The translations under genes and the position numbers were made by a program. A DNA stretch of 64,000 nt, taken from assembly GCA_964646765.1 (NCBI GenBank), contig CAZYIA010000003.1, forward strand, positions 2,815-66,814, read 5' to 3'. Positions 4,074 through 62,981 of this stretch are shown here, piece after piece. Positions within the stretch are counted from its first letter, which is position 1; each line of letters begins with the position of its first letter. Below the pieces are notes generated by a model. The model did not search any database and was not told where the DNA came from. It was given only the letters and a program-made list of their open reading frames with translations. The stretch is from an uncultured Candidatus Saccharibacteria bacterium (GTDB taxonomy: Bacteria; Patescibacteriota; Minisyncoccia; Phycocordibacterales; UBA9973).

Positions 4074-6464
4074 ATGGCTAAAGAGGCACGAAAAAAGCTG
4101 GTTTTACTTGACTCCCACGCGATTATTCACCGGGCATATCATGCCTTACCAGATTTTTCGTCGTCGAAAGGAGAGCCAACGGGGGCGCTTTACGGGCTCT
4201 CCACGATGCTTTTGCGTATCGTTACTGACTTAAAACCCGATTATATTATTGCTTGTTACGATCTTCCCCAGAAAACATTTCGTCATGAAGCATATGATGC
4301 CTATAAGGCAGGGAGAGCAAAAGCCGATGAAGCTCTTATCTCTCAGATCATTGAATCACGTCGCGTTTTCGAAGCCTTTGGTGTGCCTATTTATGATGCC
4401 GTTGGGTTTGAGGCCGATGACGTGCTTGGGACAATTGTTGAAATAAGTCGAAGCGAAAAAGATCTTGATATTATCATTGCTTCCGGAGACATGGACACAC
4501 TCCAGCTTGTTGAGGGTACGCGTGTATCTGTTTTTACGTTACGAAAGGGAATTAATGACACCGTGCTCTACGACGAAGAGAGCGTGCTTGAGCGTTTCGG
4601 TTTTAAGCCAAAACTCTTACCTGACTATAAAGGTCTTCGTGGAGATCCATCTGATAACATTATTGGGATCAAAGGTATTGGCGAGAAAACCGCGCAGATT
4701 TTAATTTCTAAAATTGGAACTATTGAGAACCTCTATAAAAAATTAAAAACTGAAAAAGGGAAAAAGGAAATTAAAGAATTAGGGCTTACTGATCGAGTGG
4801 TGAATCTTTTGGTTGAAGGTGAAGAAGAAGCGCTATTCTCAAAAACGCTTGCAACGATTCGTCGCGATGCCCCAATTGCGTTCACGGTACCAGAAAAAAC
4901 ATTTCGTCAGTCCATTATTCTCGCCAACATTGAAGCACTTTTTCGAGAACTCGAGTTTCGCTCGCTGGTGGATCGGTTGCGCAAAGTGTTTGCTGAACAA
5001 GCGGCAGTACAAACAACCATGTTCGAAGAGGCTAACATTTCATCTTTTGATCCAAAGCAGCTCAAAGAACTTACCATTGCAGTTTGGCTTTTAAATAGTG
5101 AGGAAGGGTTACCAACCCCAGAGGATGTCTTAAGGTATAAAAATGCAGCTACAGGAGAAAAAGCCGCTGAGCTTATTTTGGCTGATATTGAGAAAGCCGG
5201 GCTTAGCTATGTCTACAAAACAATTGAACTTCCTCTTATTCCAATAATTTCCAAGATGGAAGAACGTGGAATTGCAGTTGATGTTCAATTTCTTAAAGAG
5301 CTAGGTAAGGAGTACCATAAAAATCTCTCGGCTATTGAGAAAGAAATTTATCGTCATGCCGGGCGAGAATTTAACATCAACTCACCAAAACAGCTCGGTG
5401 AAGTTCTCTATGATGAACTTAAGCTAGGGGAGACGAAAGGTGTACGACTCAAAAAAACTGCTGGTGGTGCACGTTCAACACGCGAGAGTGAGCTCGAAAA
5501 ACTTCGTGAGGCACATCCAATTATCGACGCTATTCTTCGTTTCCGCGAAATTCAAAAACTTCTCTCAACCTATATTGATACTATCCCTGATTTAGTGGGA
5601 AGCGACGGACGTCTCCATGCAAAGTTTCATCAAGCCGGTACGACAACTGGTCGCTTTTCTTCAACTGATCCTAACCTCCAGAATATTCCCATTAAGAACG
5701 ATCTGGGGCGTCGCGTTCGTCGCGGATTCGTCGCGGCAAAAGGACACACACTGCTTTCATTCGACTATTCACAGATTGAACTTCGTATCGCAGCCCTTCT
5801 TTCACAGGATGAATATCTTTTGAAGGTATTTGAAGAAGGCCGGGATGTACATGCCGCGGTTGCTTCTCGAGTGTTTGGTGTTAAAGAAACAGATGTTACT
5901 CGCGAAATGCGCCGTCGCGCAAAGGTTATTAACTTCGGAATTCTCTATGGCATGGGAGTAACAGCCCTTCAACAAAATTTAGGTACTGATAGAAAAGAAG
6001 CTCAAGCTTTTTACGATAATTATTTTGCTGAATTTCCAACGATTCGTGGTTACCTTGATGGAGTACTCGAATTTGCTGAGGCGAAAGGTTTTACCGAAAC
6101 CCTTTTTGGTCGCCGTCGTTACTTTGCTGCTCTTAAATCTAAAATTCCCTTTATTAAGGCCGCAGCAGAGCGTACGGCTATCAATGCTCCAATTCAAGGA
6201 ACTGCTGCTGATGTGCTTAAAATTGCCATGCAGCGCGCCGAGCGTGAACTTGCCGCCCAGAAACTTTCTGACAAAGCCCACCTGCTTCTTCAGGTGCATG
6301 ACGAACTCATTTACGAAGTTGAAGACAGTGTTGTTCAAAAAGTGGAAAGCATTGTTGAGGAAGCAATGCAAAATGCTATTCCACCAGAATTTTTGAAAGG
6401 TAAAAAGCCAGTACCACTTGCTGTTGGTAAAGGGCAAGCTTCTAATTGGGAAGATCTAAAATAA
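4074..6464 (+). CDS. polA: DNA polymerase I (5'-3' exonuclease + polymerase domains)
   Basis: 796 aa. The N-terminal 5'-nuclease domain (LLDSHAIIHRAYHAL..) and the family-A polymerase motifs (RRRAKVINFGILYGMG, QVHDELIYEV) are present. Confidence 0.9.
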   Translation: MAKEARKKLVLLDSHAIIHRAYHALPDFSSSKGEPTGALYGLSTMLLRIVTDLKPDYIIACYDLPQKTFRHEAYDAYKAGRAKADEALISQIIESRRVFEAFGVPIYDAVGFEADDVLGTIVEISRSEKDLDIIIASGDMDTLQLVEGTRVSVFTLRKGINDTVLYDEESVLERFGFKPKLLPDYKGLRGDPSDNIIGIKGIGEKTAQILISKIGTIENLYKKLKTEKGKKEIKELGLTDRVVNLLVEGEEEALFSKTLATIRRDAPIAFTVPEKTFRQSIILANIEALFRELEFRSLVDRLRKVFAEQAAVQTTMFEEANISSFDPKQLKELTIAVWLLNSEEGLPTPEDVLRYKNAATGEKAAELILADIEKAGLSYVYKTIELPLIPIISKMEERGIAVDVQFLKELGKEYHKNLSAIEKEIYRHAGREFNINSPKQLGEVLYDELKLGETKGVRLKKTAGGARSTRESELEKLREAHPIIDAILRFREIQKLLSTYIDTIPDLVGSDGRLHAKFHQAGTTTGRFSSTDPNLQNIPIKNDLGRRVRRGFVAAKGHTLLSFDYSQIELRIAALLSQDEYLLKVFEEGRDVHAAVASRVFGVKETDVTREMRRRAKVINFGILYGMGVTALQQNLGTDRKEAQAFYDNYFAEFPTIRGYLDGVLEFAEAKGFTETLFGRRRYFAALKSKIPFIKAAAERTAINAPIQGTAADVLKIAMQRAERELAAQKLSDKAHLLLQVHDELIYEVEDSVVQKVESIVEEAMQNAIPPEFLKGKKPVPLAVGKGQASNWEDLK

Positions 6465-12087: not shown

Positions 12088-12157
12088 AAAATGAGGCTAT
12101 AGGGATCGGTCACAAATCACTAAGTTTTTACCACGCAACGCGTGTTAAAACAAAGTG

Positions 12158-12250
12158 TTTGCGACCCCGCCTCGCCTGTCACTAGCGCGACATGGCTGCG
12201 GCCTTCGATCCCTGCTCGCATGTGAAGCAGTTCACATGCTTGAGCGGATA
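12158..12250 (-). repeat. tRNA-linked conserved element, copy A (downstream of tRNA-Lys): scaffold block + antisense T-arm segment + AAGCAGT-loop hairpin
   Basis: About 70% identical to copy B (47141..47245, opposite genomic orientation, same orientation relative to its tRNA), including a 16/16 block gcgaccccgcctcgcc (12161-12176). ttcgatccctgct (12204-12216) is the reverse orientation of the tRNA-Lys T-loop/T-stem. The hairpin catgtgaagcagttcacatg lies at 12219-12238. Confidence 0.6.
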
Positions 12251-12272
12251 AAAATCCGCTTCGTGATTTTTG

Positions 12273-12345
12273 TCCGCTCAGCAGGGATCGAACCTGCGAC
12301 CGTCTCCTTAAAAGGGAGCTGCTCTACCAACTGAGCTATGAGCGG
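12273..12345 (-). tRNA. tRNA-Lys (anticodon TTT)
   Basis: Minus-strand cloverleaf CCGCTCA-TA-GCTC-AGTTGGTA-GAGC-A-GCTCC-CTTTTAA-GGAGA-CGGTC-GCAGG-TTCGATC-CCTGC-TGAGCGG-A. Anticodon loop CTTTTAA. CCA is not encoded. Confidence 0.85.
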
Positions 12346-17653: not shown

Positions 17654-17680
17654 AAAAGACTGCCCTGCGGCAGTCTTTTT
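17654..17680 (+). terminator. Rho-independent terminator after tRNA-Arg
   Basis: agactgcc-ctgc-ggcagtct stem followed by ttttt. Confidence 0.7.
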
Positions 17681-17683
17681 ACT

Positions 17684-17935
17684 GTGTGTGATGACTACAG
17701 CTATGTTTCGCGAGCACGCGAAACCGCGAGGGGCGGGCTGCGAAAATTTCGAGCGACTGGCGAGAAATTATTTGTAGCCACACTAACTGATACGGGATCA
17801 CCTGGTCATGAATCAAGTAAATTAGGACCAAAGACAAAAGCAGCCCTGATTAAGTTCCAAAAGGCTCACGGTATTCTTCCAGCGACCGGAAGATTTGGGC
17901 CAAGAACAAGAGCTTACTTCAATCAGCATCCATAG
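17684..17935 (+). CDS. Possible small ORF/gene remnant with a peptidoglycan-binding-domain-like C-terminus (GTG start; no signal peptide)
   Basis: The 3' portion of track ORF 17525..17935 downstream of the tRNA encodes ..LGPKTKAALIKFQKAHGILPATGRFGPRTRAYFN, a PG_binding_1-type motif also present at the C-terminus of CDS 42822..45614. There is no ATG; a GTG lies at about 17684. Confidence 0.25.
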   Translation: MCDDYSYVSRARETARGGLRKFRATGEKLFVATLTDTGSPGHESSKLGPKTKAALIKFQKAHGILPATGRFGPRTRAYFNQHP

Positions 17936-47015: not shown

Positions 47016-47100
47016 GGAGGCGTGGGTGAGTGGTTTAAACCAACGGTCTTGAAAACCGTCGTGTCGAAAGGCACCGTGAGTTCGAATCTCACCGCCTCCG
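47016..47100 (+). tRNA. tRNA-Ser (anticodon TGA)
   Basis: GGAGGCG-TG-GGT-GAGTGGTTTAA-ACC-A-ACGGT-CTTGAAA-ACCGT-[long variable arm CGTGTCGAAAGGCACC]-GTGAG-TTCGAAT-CTCAC-CGCCTCC-G. CCA is not encoded. Confidence 0.85.
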
Positions 47101-47110
47101 CAAGTACAAA

Positions 47111-47140
47111 AAAGAGCCCGAAAGGGCCTTTTTTGTTTGA
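47111..47140 (+). terminator. Weak rho-independent terminator after tRNA-Ser
   Basis: gccc-gaaa-gggc stem plus ttttttg. Confidence 0.4.
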
Positions 47141-47245
47141 CGCAGGCGAGCACGCAGACTGCTTTACGTGCGGGTGAGATTCGAAAGCCGCAGCGTGTCG
47201 CCTTGGCGACGGCGAGGCGGGGTCGCGAACACTTGGTAGTTTTGG
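47141..47245 (+). repeat. tRNA-linked conserved element, copy B (downstream of tRNA-Ser)
   Basis: About 70% identity to the reverse complement of 12158..12250, including the 16/16 block ggcgaggcggggtcgc (47211-47226). ggtgagattcgaa (47173-47185) is the reverse complement of the tRNA-Ser T-loop/T-stem (ttcgaatctcacc). A hairpin with an aaagcagt loop precedes it. Confidence 0.6.
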
Positions 47246-47364
47246 GAGTGAGACGAGCAAAAATACTTAGTGATTCGTGACCGAATCTCCCGTTCTTAAG
47301 TTTTAGTCGCGGGCGAATCGGCCGTCTCCGCAGAAATAGATAATTCTGATATTATTTTAATTGC

Positions 47365-61729: not shown

Positions 61730-62050
61730 ATGGATAAACTCAAACACATTTTTGCGCATCATAAACGAACACCGAAGTTTTCGAAGCCGTTTGAGCATTC
61801 TCCGGTACGCATTTGGAAAATTTTTCTCATTGCAACAACACTACTCTCGATTGGAGCTGTGATTGCATCTTGGTTTTTCTTCCGGACTCTTACAACCGAT
61901 GCGGTGTTTGATTCAGACGTACAAGGATCTTCGGGTGAACTTATTCAACACAGTAAATTAGAAACAGTGCTTTCCCACTATAAAGATAAGACAGAAAAGT
62001 TTAAACAATACTCAGAAGAGAAACCGGTGATTAAAGATCCGAGTATATAG
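61730..62050 (+). CDS. Small hypothetical membrane protein (pilus-cluster associated)
   Basis: 106 aa, one TM. Immediately follows the PilO-like gene. Confidence 0.4.
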   Translation: MDKLKHIFAHHKRTPKFSKPFEHSPVRIWKIFLIATTLLSIGAVIASWFFFRTLTTDAVFDSDVQGSSGELIQHSKLETVLSHYKDKTEKFKQYSEEKPVIKDPSI

Positions 62051-62123
62051 TATTCGCTTGGCCACGAATAATTTCTCGCCGTCGCTCAAAATTTTCTCGG
62101 CCCCGGCTCACGGTTTTTCACCA

Positions 62124-62732
62124 CTAGGTGGAGGAAATCTGAACAGTGTTTATTTTTGTAAGTACCCGCCTTCGTATCAGGCAGATAACTATTAGCACCG
62201 TATTCGCAGCTGAAATTGCAATAAGGTAACTCAGTGTTAGAAAGTTATATTCTTTTAAGGCAGCAATCGCAAAACAGTTTCCAACAACAAATAAGATGAA
62301 TGTTAAGACCGTCTCACTCCATGGTTCTTGAAATGCTTTTCGGTAGCTTGGTATATACCCCAAGACATCAATAATACAGATCAGAAGAATTGAAAGGAAA
62401 GGATTTTTAAGTTGCCACCAAATTATTATTGCAGAAAGAACAGCTATAAGTATGACTGTATCGCCGAGAGTGATATTTCTTGTGCCATATTTGAAAGACA
62501 AGAGAAAGATAAGGCACATCATTACTGTCCCTATAATTAACTCAAGTCCACCAATTCCGCCTCCACCATATAACAATCCGGCGAGTGCAGTTCCTTGCGT
62601 CAGAATCCATATGAACCAGGTATAAGCGTGCGGTTGAGTCTTTTTTAAGAAGATGTCTCTTATATAGGGGAGAAACGCCGTTGTACCAACAGCGACAGAG
62701 ATGAAGGCGAATATGAGTTTAATAGGCAACAA
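62124..62732 (-). CDS. Hypothetical polytopic membrane protein
   Basis: Six TM helices. TTG start in the track. Confidence 0.45.
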   Translation of the reverse strand: MLPIKLIFAFISVAVGTTAFLPYIRDIFLKKTQPHAYTWFIWILTQGTALAGLLYGGGGIGGLELIIGTVMMCLIFLLSFKYGTRNITLGDTVILIAVLSAIIIWWQLKNPFLSILLICIIDVLGYIPSYRKAFQEPWSETVLTFILFVVGNCFAIAALKEYNFLTLSYLIAISAANTVLIVICLIRRRVLTKINTVQISST

Positions 62733-62838: not shown

Positions 62839-62929
62839 AAGTGGGCATATCTATTGTACTTCAAAAAACAGTTCGGGACTCGCCGACTACATCGGCAGGT
62901 ACTTTTCTCATTTGCTTCTCAAATATAGA

Positions 62930-62975
62930 AAAGTCTTTCAAGTTCCTCACGCGAGCAAAGCAGTTTGCTCGCTCC
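62930..62975 (-). repeat. tRNA-linked element, diverged copy C (downstream of tRNA-Val): antisense T-arm segment + AAGCAGT-loop hairpin
   Basis: ttcaagttcctcac (62937-62950) matches the tRNA-Val T-loop/T-stem (ttcaagtccctcac) 13/14 in inverted orientation. It is followed by the hairpin gcgagcaaagcagtttgctcgc (62951-62972). Confidence 0.5.
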
Positions 62976-62981
62976 CGCGCA

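What the first reader, a model, noticed from the sequence alone, without database searches (positions are those of the whole stretch)
12158..12345. tRNA-Lys is followed by a conserved element carrying an inverted copy of its own T-arm (copy A of a tRNA-linked repeat family)
Two features lie downstream (on the tRNA strand) of tRNA-Lys(TTT), after a short hairpin. The first is a hairpin with an AAGCAGT loop (catgtgaagcagttcacatg). The second is the 13-nt string ttcgatccctgct on the opposite strand, which is an exact antisense copy of the T-loop plus 3' T-stem of the adjacent tRNA-Lys. Around these sits a scaffold that is about 70% identical to the element downstream of tRNA-Ser at 47141-47245, including a 16/16-nt block (gcgaccccgcctcgcc). 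At tRNA-Ser the 13-nt insert instead matches the tRNA-Ser T-arm (ggtgagattcgaa = revcomp of ttcgaatctcacc). So the shared scaffold carries a tRNA-specific antisense cassette, each one matched to its neighbouring tRNA, with the same order and orientation relative to the tRNA in both copies. Two independent exact 13-nt matches at equivalent positions are very unlikely by chance. I do not recognise this as a described element such as a T-box, att site, group II intron EBS or IS605 guide. In a read-through transcript the cassette could pair with the tRNA T-arm, so it may be a processing or terminating structure, a tRNA-sensing RNA, or the target-recognition part of a small mobile or repeat element.
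Basis: seen in the sequence. Interest (0 to 1): 0.85.

Follow-up and report, generated by a model that had tools for sequence, protein, structure and literature searches.

The report
tRNA-anchored hairpin repeat element of Patescibacteria
Behind many tRNA genes of these tiny-genome (Patescibacteria/CPR) bacteria sits an undescribed, highly structured, protein-less ~200-base element whose two flanks are an inverted and a direct copy of the neighbouring tRNA's own 3' end, most likely a small mobile element that lands in the tRNA T-loop and rebuilds the gene.

Summary
Both 13-nt antisense matches are exact (0 of 100 shuffles reach them).

Each one is the 3' end of a long, near-perfect hairpin. 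This hairpin starts at T54 of the tRNA and contains, in order:
- the tRNA 3' end;
- the trailer;
- a terminator-like apex;
- the anti-trailer;
- the anti-acceptor;
- an optional 25-nt CUGC hairpin (P0);
- the anti-T-arm.

A conserved three-way-junction scaffold (P2/P3) follows, and then a sense copy of the tRNA from C56 onward.

One 20-mer from the scaffold found at least 119 loci, all in Patescibacteria. 93 of 103 elements lie downstream of a tRNA or tmRNA gene on the same strand, and all isotypes are represented. Both flanks track the adjacent tRNA. Covariation is strong: 94.8% of cells are paired, against about 37% when partners are slid.

The elements vary in presence between related genomes and stack in tandem. 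An identical 50-nt hairpin core follows two different tRNA 3' ends within one genome.

Negative results:
- no Rfam family;
- no paper;
- no linked recombinase or reverse transcriptase;
- no viral copies.

Best reading (confidence about 0.5): a non-autonomous mobile or integrative element anchored at the tRNA T-loop. Its enzyme and its active form (ssDNA or RNA) are unknown. The main rival is a host RNA acting on tRNA termination or processing.

The parts
12272..12345 (-). tRNA-Lys(UUU). Its last 20 nt (T54 to N73, 12273-12292) form the left arm, called S, of the long hairpin.
   Evidence: ARAGORN; Rfam tRNA 68 bits.
12204..12292 (-). Long hairpin of the Lys copy. It contains, in order: tRNA 54-73, trailer, apex, anti-acceptor, the P0 branch and anti-T-arm.
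   Evidence: DNA fold -35.6 kcal/mol, z = -10.5, 0 of 200 shuffles as good. The same architecture is seen in 66 loci.
12242..12261 (.). Apex hairpin with A and T tracts (terminator-like). It overlaps the anti-acceptor.
   Evidence: Terminator-like site reported; sequence.
12241..12247 (-). Anti-acceptor CCGCUCA, the exact reverse complement of tRNA positions 66-72.
   Evidence: 0 mismatches; sequence.
12218..12239 (-). P0: a 9-bp hairpin with a CUGC tetraloop, inserted between the anti-acceptor and the anti-T-arm.
   Evidence: Folds. A hairpin of at least 6 bp with a CTGC loop precedes 35 of 119 elements. A 25-nt gap at this position is the commonest value among the loci with P0.
12204..12216 (-). 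Antisense T-arm cassette AGCAGGGAUCGAA. It is the 5' strand of P1 and also the right end of the long hairpin.
   Evidence: exact; 0 of 100 shuffles.
12109..12203 (-). Scaffold of the Lys copy: the junction AGG, hairpin P2, and the long hairpin P3. It includes the 16-mer at 12161-12176 and the 20-mer at 12106-12125.
   Evidence: Covariance-model hit 12094-12220, 107.4 bits, E = 2e-27. RNA fold z = -5.6. Covariation.
12101..12108 (-). Downstream sense copy CGAUCCCU (tRNA positions 56-63), the 3' strand of P1. The rest of the copy has decayed.
47016..47101 (+). tRNA-Ser(UGA).
47081..47185 (+). Long hairpin of the Ser copy. Components: apex terminator 47108-47134, anti-acceptor-like GCAGGCG 47142-47148, P0 47150-47171, antisense cassette 47173-47185.
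   Evidence: DNA fold z = -8.5. for the cassette and for the apex.
47186..47281 (+). Scaffold of the Ser copy (P2 and P3). It includes the 16-mer at 47211-47226; the 20-mer is at 47265-47284.
   Evidence: Covariance-model hit 47169-47296, 114.6 bits, E = 2e-29. Fold.
47282..47289 (+). Downstream sense copy CGAAUCUC (tRNA positions 56-63), the 3' strand of P1.
47300..47332 (+). Remnant of a second, mostly deleted element: a scaffold 3' end (TTAGTCGCGGGCGA) followed by a degenerate tRNA-Ser 3' end (CGAATCGGCCGTCTCCGCA).
   Evidence: Read directly. It matches the tRNA 3' end at 15 of 20 positions. This is my own alignment, not a tool score.
62875..62980 (-). Degenerate family member after tRNA-Val(UAC). 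Components: anti-acceptor GCGCGG, P0 (gcgagcaaaCUGCuuugcucgc), anti-T GUGAGGAACUUGAA (1 mismatch), a decayed scaffold, then CGAGUCCC.
   Evidence: Read. The covariance model did not detect it.
17676..17791 (+). Divergent subfamily copy after tRNA-Arg(GCG). Its P3 is GGCUGCGAAAAUUU...GAAAUUAUUUGUAGCC, and a sense copy of the acceptor 3' strand (CGGGATCACC) lies just beyond the hit.
   Evidence: Covariance model 17.3 bits, E = 0.009. Sequence.
62047..62120 (-). Solo P3-like hairpin of the same divergent subfamily. It sits at the end of ORF 62124-62732 and is not next to a tRNA.
   Evidence: The covariance-model hit of 24 bits covers 62047-62187. Sequence, translation.

Best explanation
This is one copy of a large, undescribed family of small (about 150-250 nt), non-coding, highly structured elements. 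I call them T-loop-anchored hairpin elements. They colonise the 3' side of tRNA and tmRNA genes in Patescibacteria.

**What a unit contains**
1. A long hairpin whose outer arms are the tRNA 3' segment S (T54 to N73 plus trailer) and its exact reverse complement S'. The apex is a terminator-like hairpin. There is an optional 25-nt CUGC-loop branch (P0).
2. A conserved three-way-junction scaffold (P2 and P3).
3. A further sense copy of S that starts at C56 of the T-loop.

**Shown**
- This architecture.
- Its link to tRNA and tmRNA genes.
- That both flanks track the adjacent tRNA.
- A strand-specific fold that covaries.
- Presence/absence variation between related genomes.
- Tandem stacking.
- That the hairpin core and scaffold are copied between different tRNAs while S and S' are rewritten.

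**Inferred**
- The element is selfish and non-autonomous. It enters at the conserved, self-complementary T-loop core (TTCGA|A), which every tRNA and tmRNA gene shares.
- The functional gene keeps or receives a complete 3' end with its own terminator. The old or duplicated 3' end is left downstream as the sense repeat.
- The antisense cassette pairs with the target's T-loop/T-stem segment. This pairing closes the scaffold (P1). Together with the upstream S it also builds a perfect duplex that copies the double-stranded target.
- S' is kept identical to the gene by templated copying within the hairpin (template switching of the quasipalindrome-correction kind). TTCGAA would serve as the point where the polymerase switches back.
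- The enzyme acts in trans and is unknown. Candidates are a structure-specific tyrosine recombinase or HUH-type nuclease acting on folded single-stranded DNA, or a GIY-YIG nickase.
- Whether the active form is ssDNA or RNA is not settled.
For: **Family and linkage**
- The 20-mer ACTTAGTGATTYGTGACCGA found at least 119 loci among 185,579 species genomes. All loci listed are Patescibacteria.
- 82 of 122 elements found with the seed motif have a same-strand tRNA within 600 nt upstream, covering 19 amino-acid isotypes; Asn is added by the profile census.
- 8 further elements follow tmRNA genes.
- By profile search, 93 of 103 elements follow a tRNA or tmRNA gene, and 112 of 182 tRNAs carry an element.

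**Flanks track the tRNA**
- The sense copy is commonly exact over 19-23 nt, from C56 to the gene end.
- Own-tRNA against other-locus control scores: 20.8 against 9.7 for the sense flank, 16.7 against 11.0 for the antisense flank.
- Anti-acceptor 7-mers: 21 exact against 2.4 expected.
- The anti-acceptor equals the reverse complement of the 3' strand rather than the tRNA 5' strand, 13 against 3. In three tRNA-Ala loci (L023, L054, L102) an exact copy turns G3.U70 into A3-U70; L072 is one mismatch away.

**Long hairpin**
- 46 of 66 loci have arms of at least 20 nt, and 20 loci have arms that extend into the trailer.
- The span from T54 to the junction clusters at 85-92 nt without P0 and 102-119 nt with P0.
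- The two window copies fold with z = -10.5 and -8.5.

**Structure**
- 94.8% of cells are paired, against 35-41% when partners are slid.
- 174 cells show a change on both sides, against 19-35 in the slid controls.
- The P2 base pair at columns 21/69 is CG 15, GC 11, AU 6, UA 2.
- A G.U pair is conserved in 33 of 36 sequences.
- Sense-strand covariance-model hits exceed 100 bits, while antisense hits reach about 25-30 bits.

**Mobility**
- In the orthologous cluster tRNA-Cys, Leu(taa), Lys(ctt), Leu(tag), occupancy differs between L036, L059 and L119.
- The near-identical tRNA-Cys genes of L059 and L119 carry different element variants.
- L126 and L127 have the same tRNA-Ser 3' end 65 nt before the GNAT orthologue, with no element. 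The corresponding interval in the window is 263 nt.
- L014 has two 100% identical 150-nt units in tandem. L015 and L071 each have three different units in tandem, each with its own terminator and S'.
- The same hairpin core follows tRNA-Gly, Arg, Ala and Glu in different genomes. An identical 50-nt core follows two different tRNA 3' ends within L071.
- Contigs often break inside the element.

**Possible ssDNA form**
- GCGNAGC mini-hairpins are 13-fold enriched on the sense strand. There are 45, against 1 for the complement.
Against: - No recombinase, transposase, HUH protein or reverse transcriptase is enriched within 8 kb. This comes from BLAST clustering of 1,141 ORFs. No free, circular or cargo-bearing autonomous form was found.
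- The scaffold is more conserved across lineages than typical selfish repeats, which would also fit a host function.
- How S and S' get rewritten for each new tRNA is inferred, not shown.
- If the element carries S, integration into a non-cognate tRNA would be lethal. If instead S is duplicated from the target, a fixed repeat length would be expected. In fact the repeat ends at the gene end in most loci but runs to 34-50 nt in three.
- Orthologous elements in L035 and L112 differ in repeat extent (37 against 19 nt). Gene conversion therefore blurs the original junctions.
- The test for loss of an encoded CCA in occupied genes was not significant: 8 of 105 against 10 of 67, p = 0.14.
- The antisense arm is often perfect while the downstream sense copy has decayed (37 loci). 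This needs either ongoing templating or selection on S'.
- All loci were collected with one exact 20-mer. Basal P3 conservation and the occupancy figures are therefore biased upward.
Confidence: 0.5

Rival explanations
1. The element is a host-beneficial RNA module acting in cis on tRNA expression. The long hairpin would be an extended intrinsic terminator or attenuator. In read-through transcripts, S' would sequester the tRNA 3' end. Such transcripts would then be cut (for example by RNase III) or refolded when the downstream sense copy competes for S'. The scaffold would be a protein-binding or processing platform.
For: - The element always has the same orientation as the tRNA.
- A terminator-like hairpin sits at the apex of the long hairpin.
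- The fold is strand-specific, covaries, and has a conserved G.U pair and GNA loops.
- The scaffold sequence is very strongly conserved across lineages.
- S' can pair with two alternative partners, the upstream S and the downstream S.
- S' is often perfect where the downstream copy has decayed.
Against: - Occupancy is patchy between close relatives, and the same tRNA carries unrelated variants.
- Decayed, truncated and tandem copies occur.
- An RNA function does not explain perfect Watson-Crick arms of about 40 bp that include the trailer, nor the removal of natural G.U pairs.
- It does not explain a direct repeat of the tRNA 3' end that ends at the gene end.
- It does not explain the identical hairpin core after different tRNAs.
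Confidence: 0.25
2. These are miniature leftovers or cis-mobilisable derivatives of classical integrase-borne islands, plasmids or phages that integrate in the tRNA T-loop. The direct repeat would be attL/attR, and the scaffold would be the protein-binding arms of attP.
For: - The direct repeat from the T-loop to the gene 3' end is the textbook signature of T-loop integrases. This rests on my own knowledge of Williams 2002. tmRNA genes are likewise common integration sites (PMC11915505).
- Units accumulate in tandem.
- The displaced 3' ends are often followed by their own terminators.
Against: - No integrase gene lies near any of about 120 loci.
- No copies were found in IMG/VR.
- One integrase family would have to serve all isotypes and tmRNA.
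- The scaffold shows base-pair covariation and strand asymmetry, which double-stranded protein-binding sites would not show.
- att logic does not explain the antisense arm.
Confidence: 0.1
3. The element is an intron-like ribozyme, or the remnant of one, sitting in the T-loop. The antisense cassette would be an internal guide sequence, as in group I introns, which are common in Patescibacteria tRNA genes and in tmRNA T-loops.
For: - The cassette is the exact antisense of the would-be exon junction (T-loop plus T-stem 3' strand).
- Group I introns are frequent in Patescibacteria tRNA genes (PMC13011429) and in tmRNA T-loops (PMC11915505).
- In L004 a GIY-YIG ORF sits where the distal part of P3 would be.
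Against: - RF00028 and every other Rfam ribozyme give no hit, even at E <= 10.
- The scaffold is only about 110 nt, with two hairpins and no P3-P9 core.
- No junction register gives both a U at position -1 and a terminal G.
- The upstream tRNA is already complete and has its own terminator-like hairpin, so splicing is not needed.
Confidence: 0.07
4. The matches are chance, or ordinary remnants of inverted tRNA gene duplications with no shared element.
For: TTCGAA is self-complementary, so about 5-6 nt of each antisense match come for free.
Against: - 0 of 100 shuffles reproduce either 13-mer.
- More than 100 further copies have the same scaffold and order.
- Controls using tRNAs from other loci score far lower.
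Confidence: 0.01

Closest known systems
Genomic islands and prophages that integrate in the T-loop sublocation of tRNA/tmRNA genes (tyrosine integrases), and their integrase-less CIME derivatives
   Same: - A direct repeat of the gene from the T-loop to its 3' end.
- The functional gene is kept intact.
- Units pile up in tandem at the same gene.
- tmRNA genes are also used.
   Different: - The element is only about 0.2 kb.
- No integrase lies nearby.
- All isotypes are used.
- It has an additional inverted copy of the target and a covarying, strand-specific scaffold.
Folded single-stranded recombination sites: CTX-phi attP(+) with XerCD (IMEX elements) and integron attC
   Same: - Two inverted copies of the target-like sequence, separated by about 100 nt, fold into a hairpin that copies the double-stranded target.
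- The fold is strand-specific.
- Different elements accumulate in tandem at the regenerated site.
   Different: - Those systems have one fixed target (dif or attI). Here the arms are rewritten for each tRNA.
- The intervening region here is a conserved three-way junction rather than a variable loop.
- No recombinase has been identified, and an ssDNA form has not been shown.
Non-autonomous bacterial repeats mobilised in trans (MITEs; REP/REPIN with RAYT; PATEs of IS200/IS605)
   Same: - Small, non-coding, multi-copy, hairpin-forming.
- Likely dependent on an enzyme encoded elsewhere.
- They cause breaks in genome assemblies.
   Different: - The terminal repeats here are specific to each copy and derive from the target, rather than being conserved.
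- The target is strictly the T-loop of tRNA and tmRNA genes.
- The internal scaffold is far more conserved across lineages.
Guide-target pairing of mobile introns (group I IGS with P1/P10; group II EBS with IBS)
   Same: A segment inside the element is complementary to the sequence that flanks its insertion site, so each copy appears 'matched' to its host gene.
   Different: - No intron core.
- No splice boundaries.
- The host gene is not interrupted.
- Complementarity extends over 20-40 nt, including the trailer.
IS110/IS1111 bridge (seek) RNAs
   Same: A structured non-coding RNA-like scaffold carries segments matching both strands of a target.
   Different: - There is no adjacent DEDD recombinase.
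- The two segments here cover the same target positions and pair with each other, rather than lying in internal loops.
- The target is left intact about 50 nt away.

Membership tests
Any Rfam 15 family (including tRNA-like, T-box, tmRNA, ribozymes, HEARO/IS605-orfB and LOOT) | Covariance-model score at or near the family's gathering threshold | tested here: not met
   Only the tRNAs hit at gathering threshold. At E <= 10 on both loci, nothing overlaps the scaffold meaningfully. In 18 related loci only tRNA, tmRNA and LOOT were found, none of them over the scaffold.
Group I intron | P3-P9 catalytic core; 5' exon ending in U paired to G of the guide sequence; terminal G | tested here: not met
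   No RF00028 hit. The scaffold has two hairpins only. The four possible junction registers around CGA never combine a U at -1 with a terminal G (read from the sequence).
Integrase-borne tRNA-integrating island | Direct repeat of the tRNA 3' part bounding the element | tested here: met
   Exact 19-23 nt repeats from C56 to the gene end in about 30 loci.
Integrase-borne tRNA-integrating island | Tyrosine (or serine) integrase gene inside the element, next to the tRNA | tested here: not met
   The interval between the repeats is about 150-250 nt and has no ORF. No recombinase-like cluster appears among 1,141 neighbouring ORFs. Clusters were judged by inspection, without a domain scan.
MITE | Terminal inverted repeats conserved between copies, plus a short target-site duplication of fixed length | tested here: not met
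   The inverted arms differ between copies and equal the neighbouring tRNA. The direct repeat length ranges from 7 to 50 nt.
IS200/IS605-type ssDNA element or PATE | Insertion 3' of a fixed tetra- or pentanucleotide, subterminal hairpins, no duplication, TnpA (HUH Y1) in cis or trans | tested here: inconclusive
   The right junction is always at (T/C)CGA| of a T-loop, and hairpins are present. However, the target is duplicated, and no TnpA was seen near the loci. A trans-acting copy elsewhere in the genomes could not be searched for.
Folded-ssDNA att site (attC or CTX attP type) | Recombination of the folded single strand by a tyrosine recombinase | not testable with these tools
   Only indirect support is available: a hairpin copying the target, strand specificity, and enrichment of GCGNAGC mini-hairpins.
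IS110 bridge RNA | Adjacent DEDD recombinase, and two internal loops each holding split guides | tested here: not met
   No such gene was seen among the neighbouring ORFs. The two matched segments form a continuous helix.
Aminoacylatable tRNA mimic (minihelix, tmRNA-like domain) | The acceptor stem keeps the identity elements of the parent tRNA | tested here: not met
   The anti-acceptor follows the reverse complement of the 3' strand (13 against 3). G3.U70 of tRNA-Ala becomes A3-U70. An intact anti-acceptor and an intact downstream acceptor strand rarely occur together (correlation -0.36).

The most novel reading that the evidence does not exclude
The scaffold together with its matched arms is the nucleic-acid half of a previously unknown base-pair-programmed or structure-programmed insertion system. 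A folded ssDNA or RNA presents a copy of its target, or pairs with it (the T-loop/T-stem 3' region of any tRNA or tmRNA gene). A trans-acting Patescibacteria enzyme inserts the element at TTCGA|A. The target-matching arms are then rewritten from the new target by templated synthesis. If so, this would be a self-retargeting element that needs no protein gene of its own.
Probability: 0.3. Interest if true: 0.9.

Novelty: new variant of a known kind. Interest (0 to 1): 0.8.

Why it matters
- **Scale.** If this is right, a substantial share of the tRNA genes in the loci sampled here carry a parasitic or co-opted structured element that annotation pipelines do not see: about 30% of the tRNAs that did not seed the search. 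That adds up to tens of copies per genome of roughly 1 Mb. The element breaks metagenome assemblies at tRNA loci.
- **A new way of using tRNA genes.** The element shows a way to use the universally conserved T-loop as a landing pad without destroying the gene. That is of interest for mobile-element biology and for site-specific insertion tools.
- **An open puzzle.** One conserved core acquires arms that match many different tRNAs. This could reveal a templated 'retargeting' mechanism.
- **If the host-function rival is right instead.** It would be a new class of tRNA-linked regulatory or processing RNA in a lineage whose RNA biology is largely unknown.

Tried and rejected
- **Rfam.** I searched at gathering threshold and at E <= 10. 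Nothing matched the scaffold.
- **tmRNA or tRNA-like gene.** ARAGORN and Rfam find only the normal genes.
- **Chargeable minihelix.** Rejected.
- **Retron (a1/a2 repeats), DGR, bridge RNA, omega-RNA.** No reverse transcriptase, recombinase, TnpB or IscB lies near the loci.
- **Viral origin.** Three IMG/VR scans. The fourteen 16-mer hits were chance, because the covariance model found none of them.
- **Metagenome scan for empty tRNA-Lys sites.** A 29-nt tRNA-Lys pattern gave 0 hits.
- **Exact-protein look-ups of the window's flanking genes.** They returned only the same genome, with contigs broken in the element.
- **Does insertion replace an encoded CCA?** Not significant.
- **Apparent 8-nt duplication (GCGAATAC) around the copy at 62047-62187.** It probably lies inside the natural C-terminus of the ORF, so I dropped it as evidence of transposition.
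- **A fixed-length target-site duplication model.** It does not fit the repeat lengths, and the orthologous pair L035/L112 differ in repeat extent.
- **Homing by a GIY-YIG endonuclease.** This remains only a lead. Four small GIY-YIG ORFs lie next to occupied tRNA or tmRNA genes.
- **Literature.** Five searches found no description. The nearest papers concern group I introns in Patescibacteria tRNA anticodon loops (PMC13011429) and in tmRNA T-loops (PMC11915505).
Full report
**1. The observation**

ARAGORN places tRNA-Lys(ttt) at 12272-12345 (-) and tRNA-Ser(tga) at 47016-47101 (+).

- TTCGATCCCTGCT at 12280-12292 (-) and 12204-12216 (+);
- TTCGAATCTCACC at 47081-47093 (+) and 47173-47185 (-).

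No shuffle of 100 gave two matches for either. The 16-mer GGCGAGGCGGGGTCGC is exact in both copies. The two downstream regions align at 77% mean column identity.

One qualification applies. TTCGAA is its own reverse complement, and a TCGAA edge is part of the conserved element. The tRNA-specific part of each match is therefore about 8 nt, not 13.

**2. The element is larger than reported**

The alignment and the folds show a conserved unit of about 130 nt, in this order:
- the antisense cassette;
- a junction, A(A/G)G;
- hairpin P2;
- a long hairpin P3, whose two strands are the conserved blocks GGGGTCGMGAACACTT and ACTTAGTGATTYGTGACCGA;
- immediately after that, an 8-nt sense copy of the T-loop and T-stem 3' strand (CGATCCCT for Lys, CGAATCTC for Ser).

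Antisense and sense segments pair to form a helix, P1, that closes a three-way junction. The tRNA strand folds better than its complement: -62 against -50 kcal/mol and -64 against -55 kcal/mol.

No Rfam 15 family matches, either at gathering threshold or at E <= 10.

**3. A large family confined to Patescibacteria**

I scanned one genome per species (185,579 species) with the 20-mer. Every locus listed is a Patescibacteria MAG, labelled Kaiser-, Yonath-, Nomura-, Campbellbacteria, Paceibacteria and so on.

Linkage to tRNA and tmRNA genes:
- 82 of 122 motif occurrences have a same-strand tRNA within 600 nt upstream. These cover 19 amino-acid isotypes; the profile census adds Asn.
- Eight of the remaining occurrences follow tmRNA genes.
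- With a profile built from 36 compact copies, 93 of 103 elements that have enough upstream sequence follow a tRNA or tmRNA gene on the same strand.
- 112 of 182 tRNAs in these loci carry an element within 400 nt. Excluding the tRNAs that seeded the search, this is roughly 30 of 100.

No copies exist in IMG/VR.

Within the window the family has further members:
- a divergent subfamily copy after tRNA-Arg(gcg), 17676-17791, 17 bits;
- a solo P3-like hairpin at 62047-62120, the core of a 24-bit hit spanning 62047-62187;
- by eye, a degenerate copy after tRNA-Val (about 62875-62980);
- by eye, the stump of a second element after the Ser copy (47300-47332).

**4. Both flanks follow the neighbouring tRNA**

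After GACCGA, many copies continue as an exact copy of the tRNA from C56 to the end of the gene. This is typically 19-20 nt. It rarely runs on into the trailer or terminator: 50 nt in L011, 37 in L035, 34 in L110.

I scored each flank against its own tRNA and against tRNAs from other loci:
- sense flank 20.8 against 9.7;
- antisense flank 16.7 against 11.0.

A 7-nt anti-acceptor lies 5' of the CUGC hairpin. There were 21 exact cases against 2.4 expected. The window's Lys copy is one of them (CCGCTCA).

Where the two acceptor strands of a tRNA are not perfectly complementary, the anti-acceptor follows the reverse complement of the 3' strand (13 cases) rather than the tRNA's 5' strand (3 cases). 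In three tRNA-Ala loci (L023, L054, L102) an exact copy converts G3.U70 into A3-U70, and L072 is one mismatch away. This is a templated or perfectly paired copy of the gene. It is not a chargeable mimic of the tRNA.

**5. The long hairpin**

From T54 of the tRNA to the last base of the antisense cassette, the sequence forms one near-perfect hairpin. Its parts, in order, are:
- tRNA positions 54-73;
- an A-rich trailer;
- a GC-rich apex that looks like an intrinsic terminator;
- a T-rich anti-trailer;
- the anti-acceptor;
- optionally the CUGC hairpin P0, a branch most often 25 nt long, inserted where the acceptor and T-stem strands meet;
- the anti-T-arm.

Figures:
- Arms reach the discriminator in 46 of 66 loci and run into the trailer in 20.
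- The total span is sharply peaked at 85-92 nt without P0 and 102-119 nt with it. This holds although the apex sequences are unrelated between loci.
- The window's hairpins (12204-12292 and 47081-47185) have z-scores of -10.5 and -8.5.

I have no explanation for the constant length.

**6. The structure is real and strand-specific**

On the 36-sequence alignment:
- 94.8% of cells form standard pairs, against 35-41% when the 3' partners are slid by 1-3 columns;
- 174 cells carry changes on both sides, against 19-35 in the slid controls;
- no shuffle of 500 reaches the observed covariation score;
- the P2 base pair at columns 21/69 is CG 15, GC 11, AU 6, UA 2;
- distal P3 covaries throughout;
- basal P3 holds a G.U pair in 33 of 36 sequences. 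On the other strand this would be a C.A mismatch.

Basal P3 is invariant partly because the search pattern lies in it. Covariance-model scores exceed 100 bits on the tRNA strand and reach about 25-30 bits on the opposite strand.

The hairpin tips are rich in GCGNAGC: 45 on the sense strand against 1 for the complement, a 13-fold enrichment over background. From my own knowledge, d(GCGAAGC) is an unusually stable DNA mini-hairpin. A single-stranded DNA form is therefore as plausible as an RNA.

**7. Signs of turnover and copying**

- The conserved cluster tRNA-Cys, Leu(taa), Lys(ctt), Leu(tag) is occupied differently in three genomes. Leu(taa) is empty in L036 and L059 and occupied in L119. Lys(ctt) and Leu(tag) are occupied in L036 and empty in L119.
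- L059 and L119 have near-identical tRNA-Cys genes but carry different element variants.
- In L126 and L127, an orthologue of the window's Ser locus has the same tRNA-Ser 3' end 65 nt before the GNAT gene, with no element. The corresponding interval in the window is 263 nt.
- L014 has two 100% identical 150-nt units in tandem. L015 and L071 each have three different units in series. Each unit consists of its own terminator, S', a scaffold and S.
- The hairpin core belongs to the repeated unit. The same core (caaatcggccg ... cgttgccgtttgtag) follows tRNA-Gly, Arg, Ala and Glu in different MAGs. An identical 50-nt core follows two different tRNA 3' ends within L071.
- Assemblies often break inside the element.

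So the core and scaffold are copied between tRNA loci, while the tRNA-matching arms are rewritten.

**8. Two architectural classes**

- **Class A.** A full antisense arm (anti-trailer, anti-acceptor, usually P0, anti-T) matches the upstream tRNA perfectly. The downstream sense copy is short or decayed. Both window copies belong here.
- **Class B.** Only the anti-T segment is present, and the downstream sense copy is complete.

The integrity of the two arms is negatively correlated, r = -0.36.

The orthologous elements in L035 and L112 differ in repeat extent (37 against 19 nt). Gene conversion between the repeats is therefore at work and blurs the original junctions.

**9. What is not there**

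- BLAST clustering of 1,141 ORFs from the loci gave only housekeeping neighbours. I saw no recombinase, transposase or reverse transcriptase, judging by inspection.
- Four small GIY-YIG ORFs, confirmed against Pfam, lie directly beside occupied tRNA or tmRNA genes. One of them replaces the 5' half of an element. This is a lead only.
- The idea that occupied genes have lost an encoded CCA was not significant (p = 0.14).
- Five literature searches found no description. The nearest work concerns group I introns in Patescibacteria tRNA anticodon loops (PMC13011429) and in tmRNA T-loops (PMC11915505).

**10. Interpretation**

Shown:
- the architecture;
- the linkage to tRNA and tmRNA genes;
- that both flanks track the tRNA;
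- the covarying, strand-specific fold;
- patchy occupancy;
- tandem units;
- copying of the core and scaffold between different tRNAs.

Inferred, with confidence about 0.5:
- The family is a non-autonomous mobile or integrative element. It uses the universally conserved, self-complementary T-loop core as its entry point.
- It leaves the gene functional, with its own terminator, and leaves a copy of the 3' end downstream.
- The antisense cassette is the element's target-matching arm. It closes the scaffold by pairing with the T-loop/T-stem segment. Together with the tRNA 3' end it forms a duplex that copies the double-stranded target. This resembles the folded attP of CTX phage and integron attC sites.
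- The perfection of the arms, and the fact that they follow the gene rather than the decaying downstream copy, fits repeated templating within the hairpin (quasipalindrome-type template switching), with TTCGAA as the switch point.

Unknown: the enzyme, the active nucleic acid, and the way new tRNAs are colonised.

The main rival (0.25) is a host RNA module that couples tRNA termination, read-through and processing. It explains the orientation, the apex terminator and the strong conservation. It does not explain the perfect 40-bp arms, the direct repeat, the turnover, or the shared core.

**11. Verdict**

Their interpretation is partly supported: of their three options, the mobile or repeat-element option fits best. 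The element belongs to no family I could test it against. It is widespread and unannotated, and I rate it as highly interesting.

Noticed in passing
L085:5560-5700, L033:7400-7560, L104 (- strand, about 300 nt upstream of the element at 4988-5130): In three loci the element carries a tRNA-Ser-like 3' end, but the gene upstream is not a tRNA. It is a short unannotated transcript-like unit. In L085 and L033 it has an extended -10 box (TGcTATAAT). In all three it has a conserved 3' part (...CTTAAC.C...GGCCCGCA(A/C)CGAC) followed by a terminator. Rfam finds nothing there.
   Followed up: partly
L004:5287-5523, L111:7308-7541, L036:6791-6979 (-), L022:2636-2818 (-): Small (60-80 aa) GIY-YIG nuclease ORFs lie directly beside tRNA or tmRNA genes that carry an element. 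In L004 the ORF sits between the tmRNA gene and the last 20 nt of the scaffold. These were the only four GIY-YIG hits in about 0.9 Mb of loci.
   Followed up: partly
66 loci; window 12204-12292 and 47081-47185: The distance from T54 of the tRNA to the end of the antisense arm is nearly constant: 85-92 nt, or 102-119 nt with the CUGC hairpin. The apex sequences are unrelated between loci. I have no explanation for this 'ruler'.
   Followed up: no
L014:4213-4463 (-): Two 100% identical 150-nt units lie in tandem after tRNA-Leu(gag). This could be a very recent duplication by unequal crossing-over at the 16-20-nt repeat, or a second insertion.
   Followed up: partly
All fetched loci and the window: 154 of 172 tRNA genes do not encode CCA. 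Almost all of them continue N73-C-A-(A/T/C/G), that is, 'CA' directly after the discriminator.
   Followed up: no
L001:1-105, L002:1-105, L128, L130 and several GTDB contigs (L009, L025, L038, L043, L053): Independent assemblies end inside the element, often within the P3 3' strand. The repeat therefore fragments Patescibacteria assemblies at tRNA loci.
   Followed up: no
L085:4484-4612, L033:3415-3542: LOOT RNA (RF03000) hits of 86 and 79 bits lie in two of the loci, about 1.3-4 kb from the element. I saw no obvious link.
   Followed up: no
window 62047-62187 (-): A P3-like hairpin of the divergent subfamily lies at the 3' end of a membrane-protein ORF (62124-62732), away from any tRNA. An 8-nt repeat (GCGAATAC) flanks it, but the upstream copy probably lies in genuine coding sequence.
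   Followed up: partly
L024, L043, L053, L019 (junction CGAACTT...); L049, L051, L083 (junction CGATGAA...): In some subfamilies 2-4 extra bases sit between the scaffold end and the sense copy (CGA-AC-TT..., CGA-TGAA-CC...). The exact joining point in the T-loop therefore differs between lineages.
   Followed up: no
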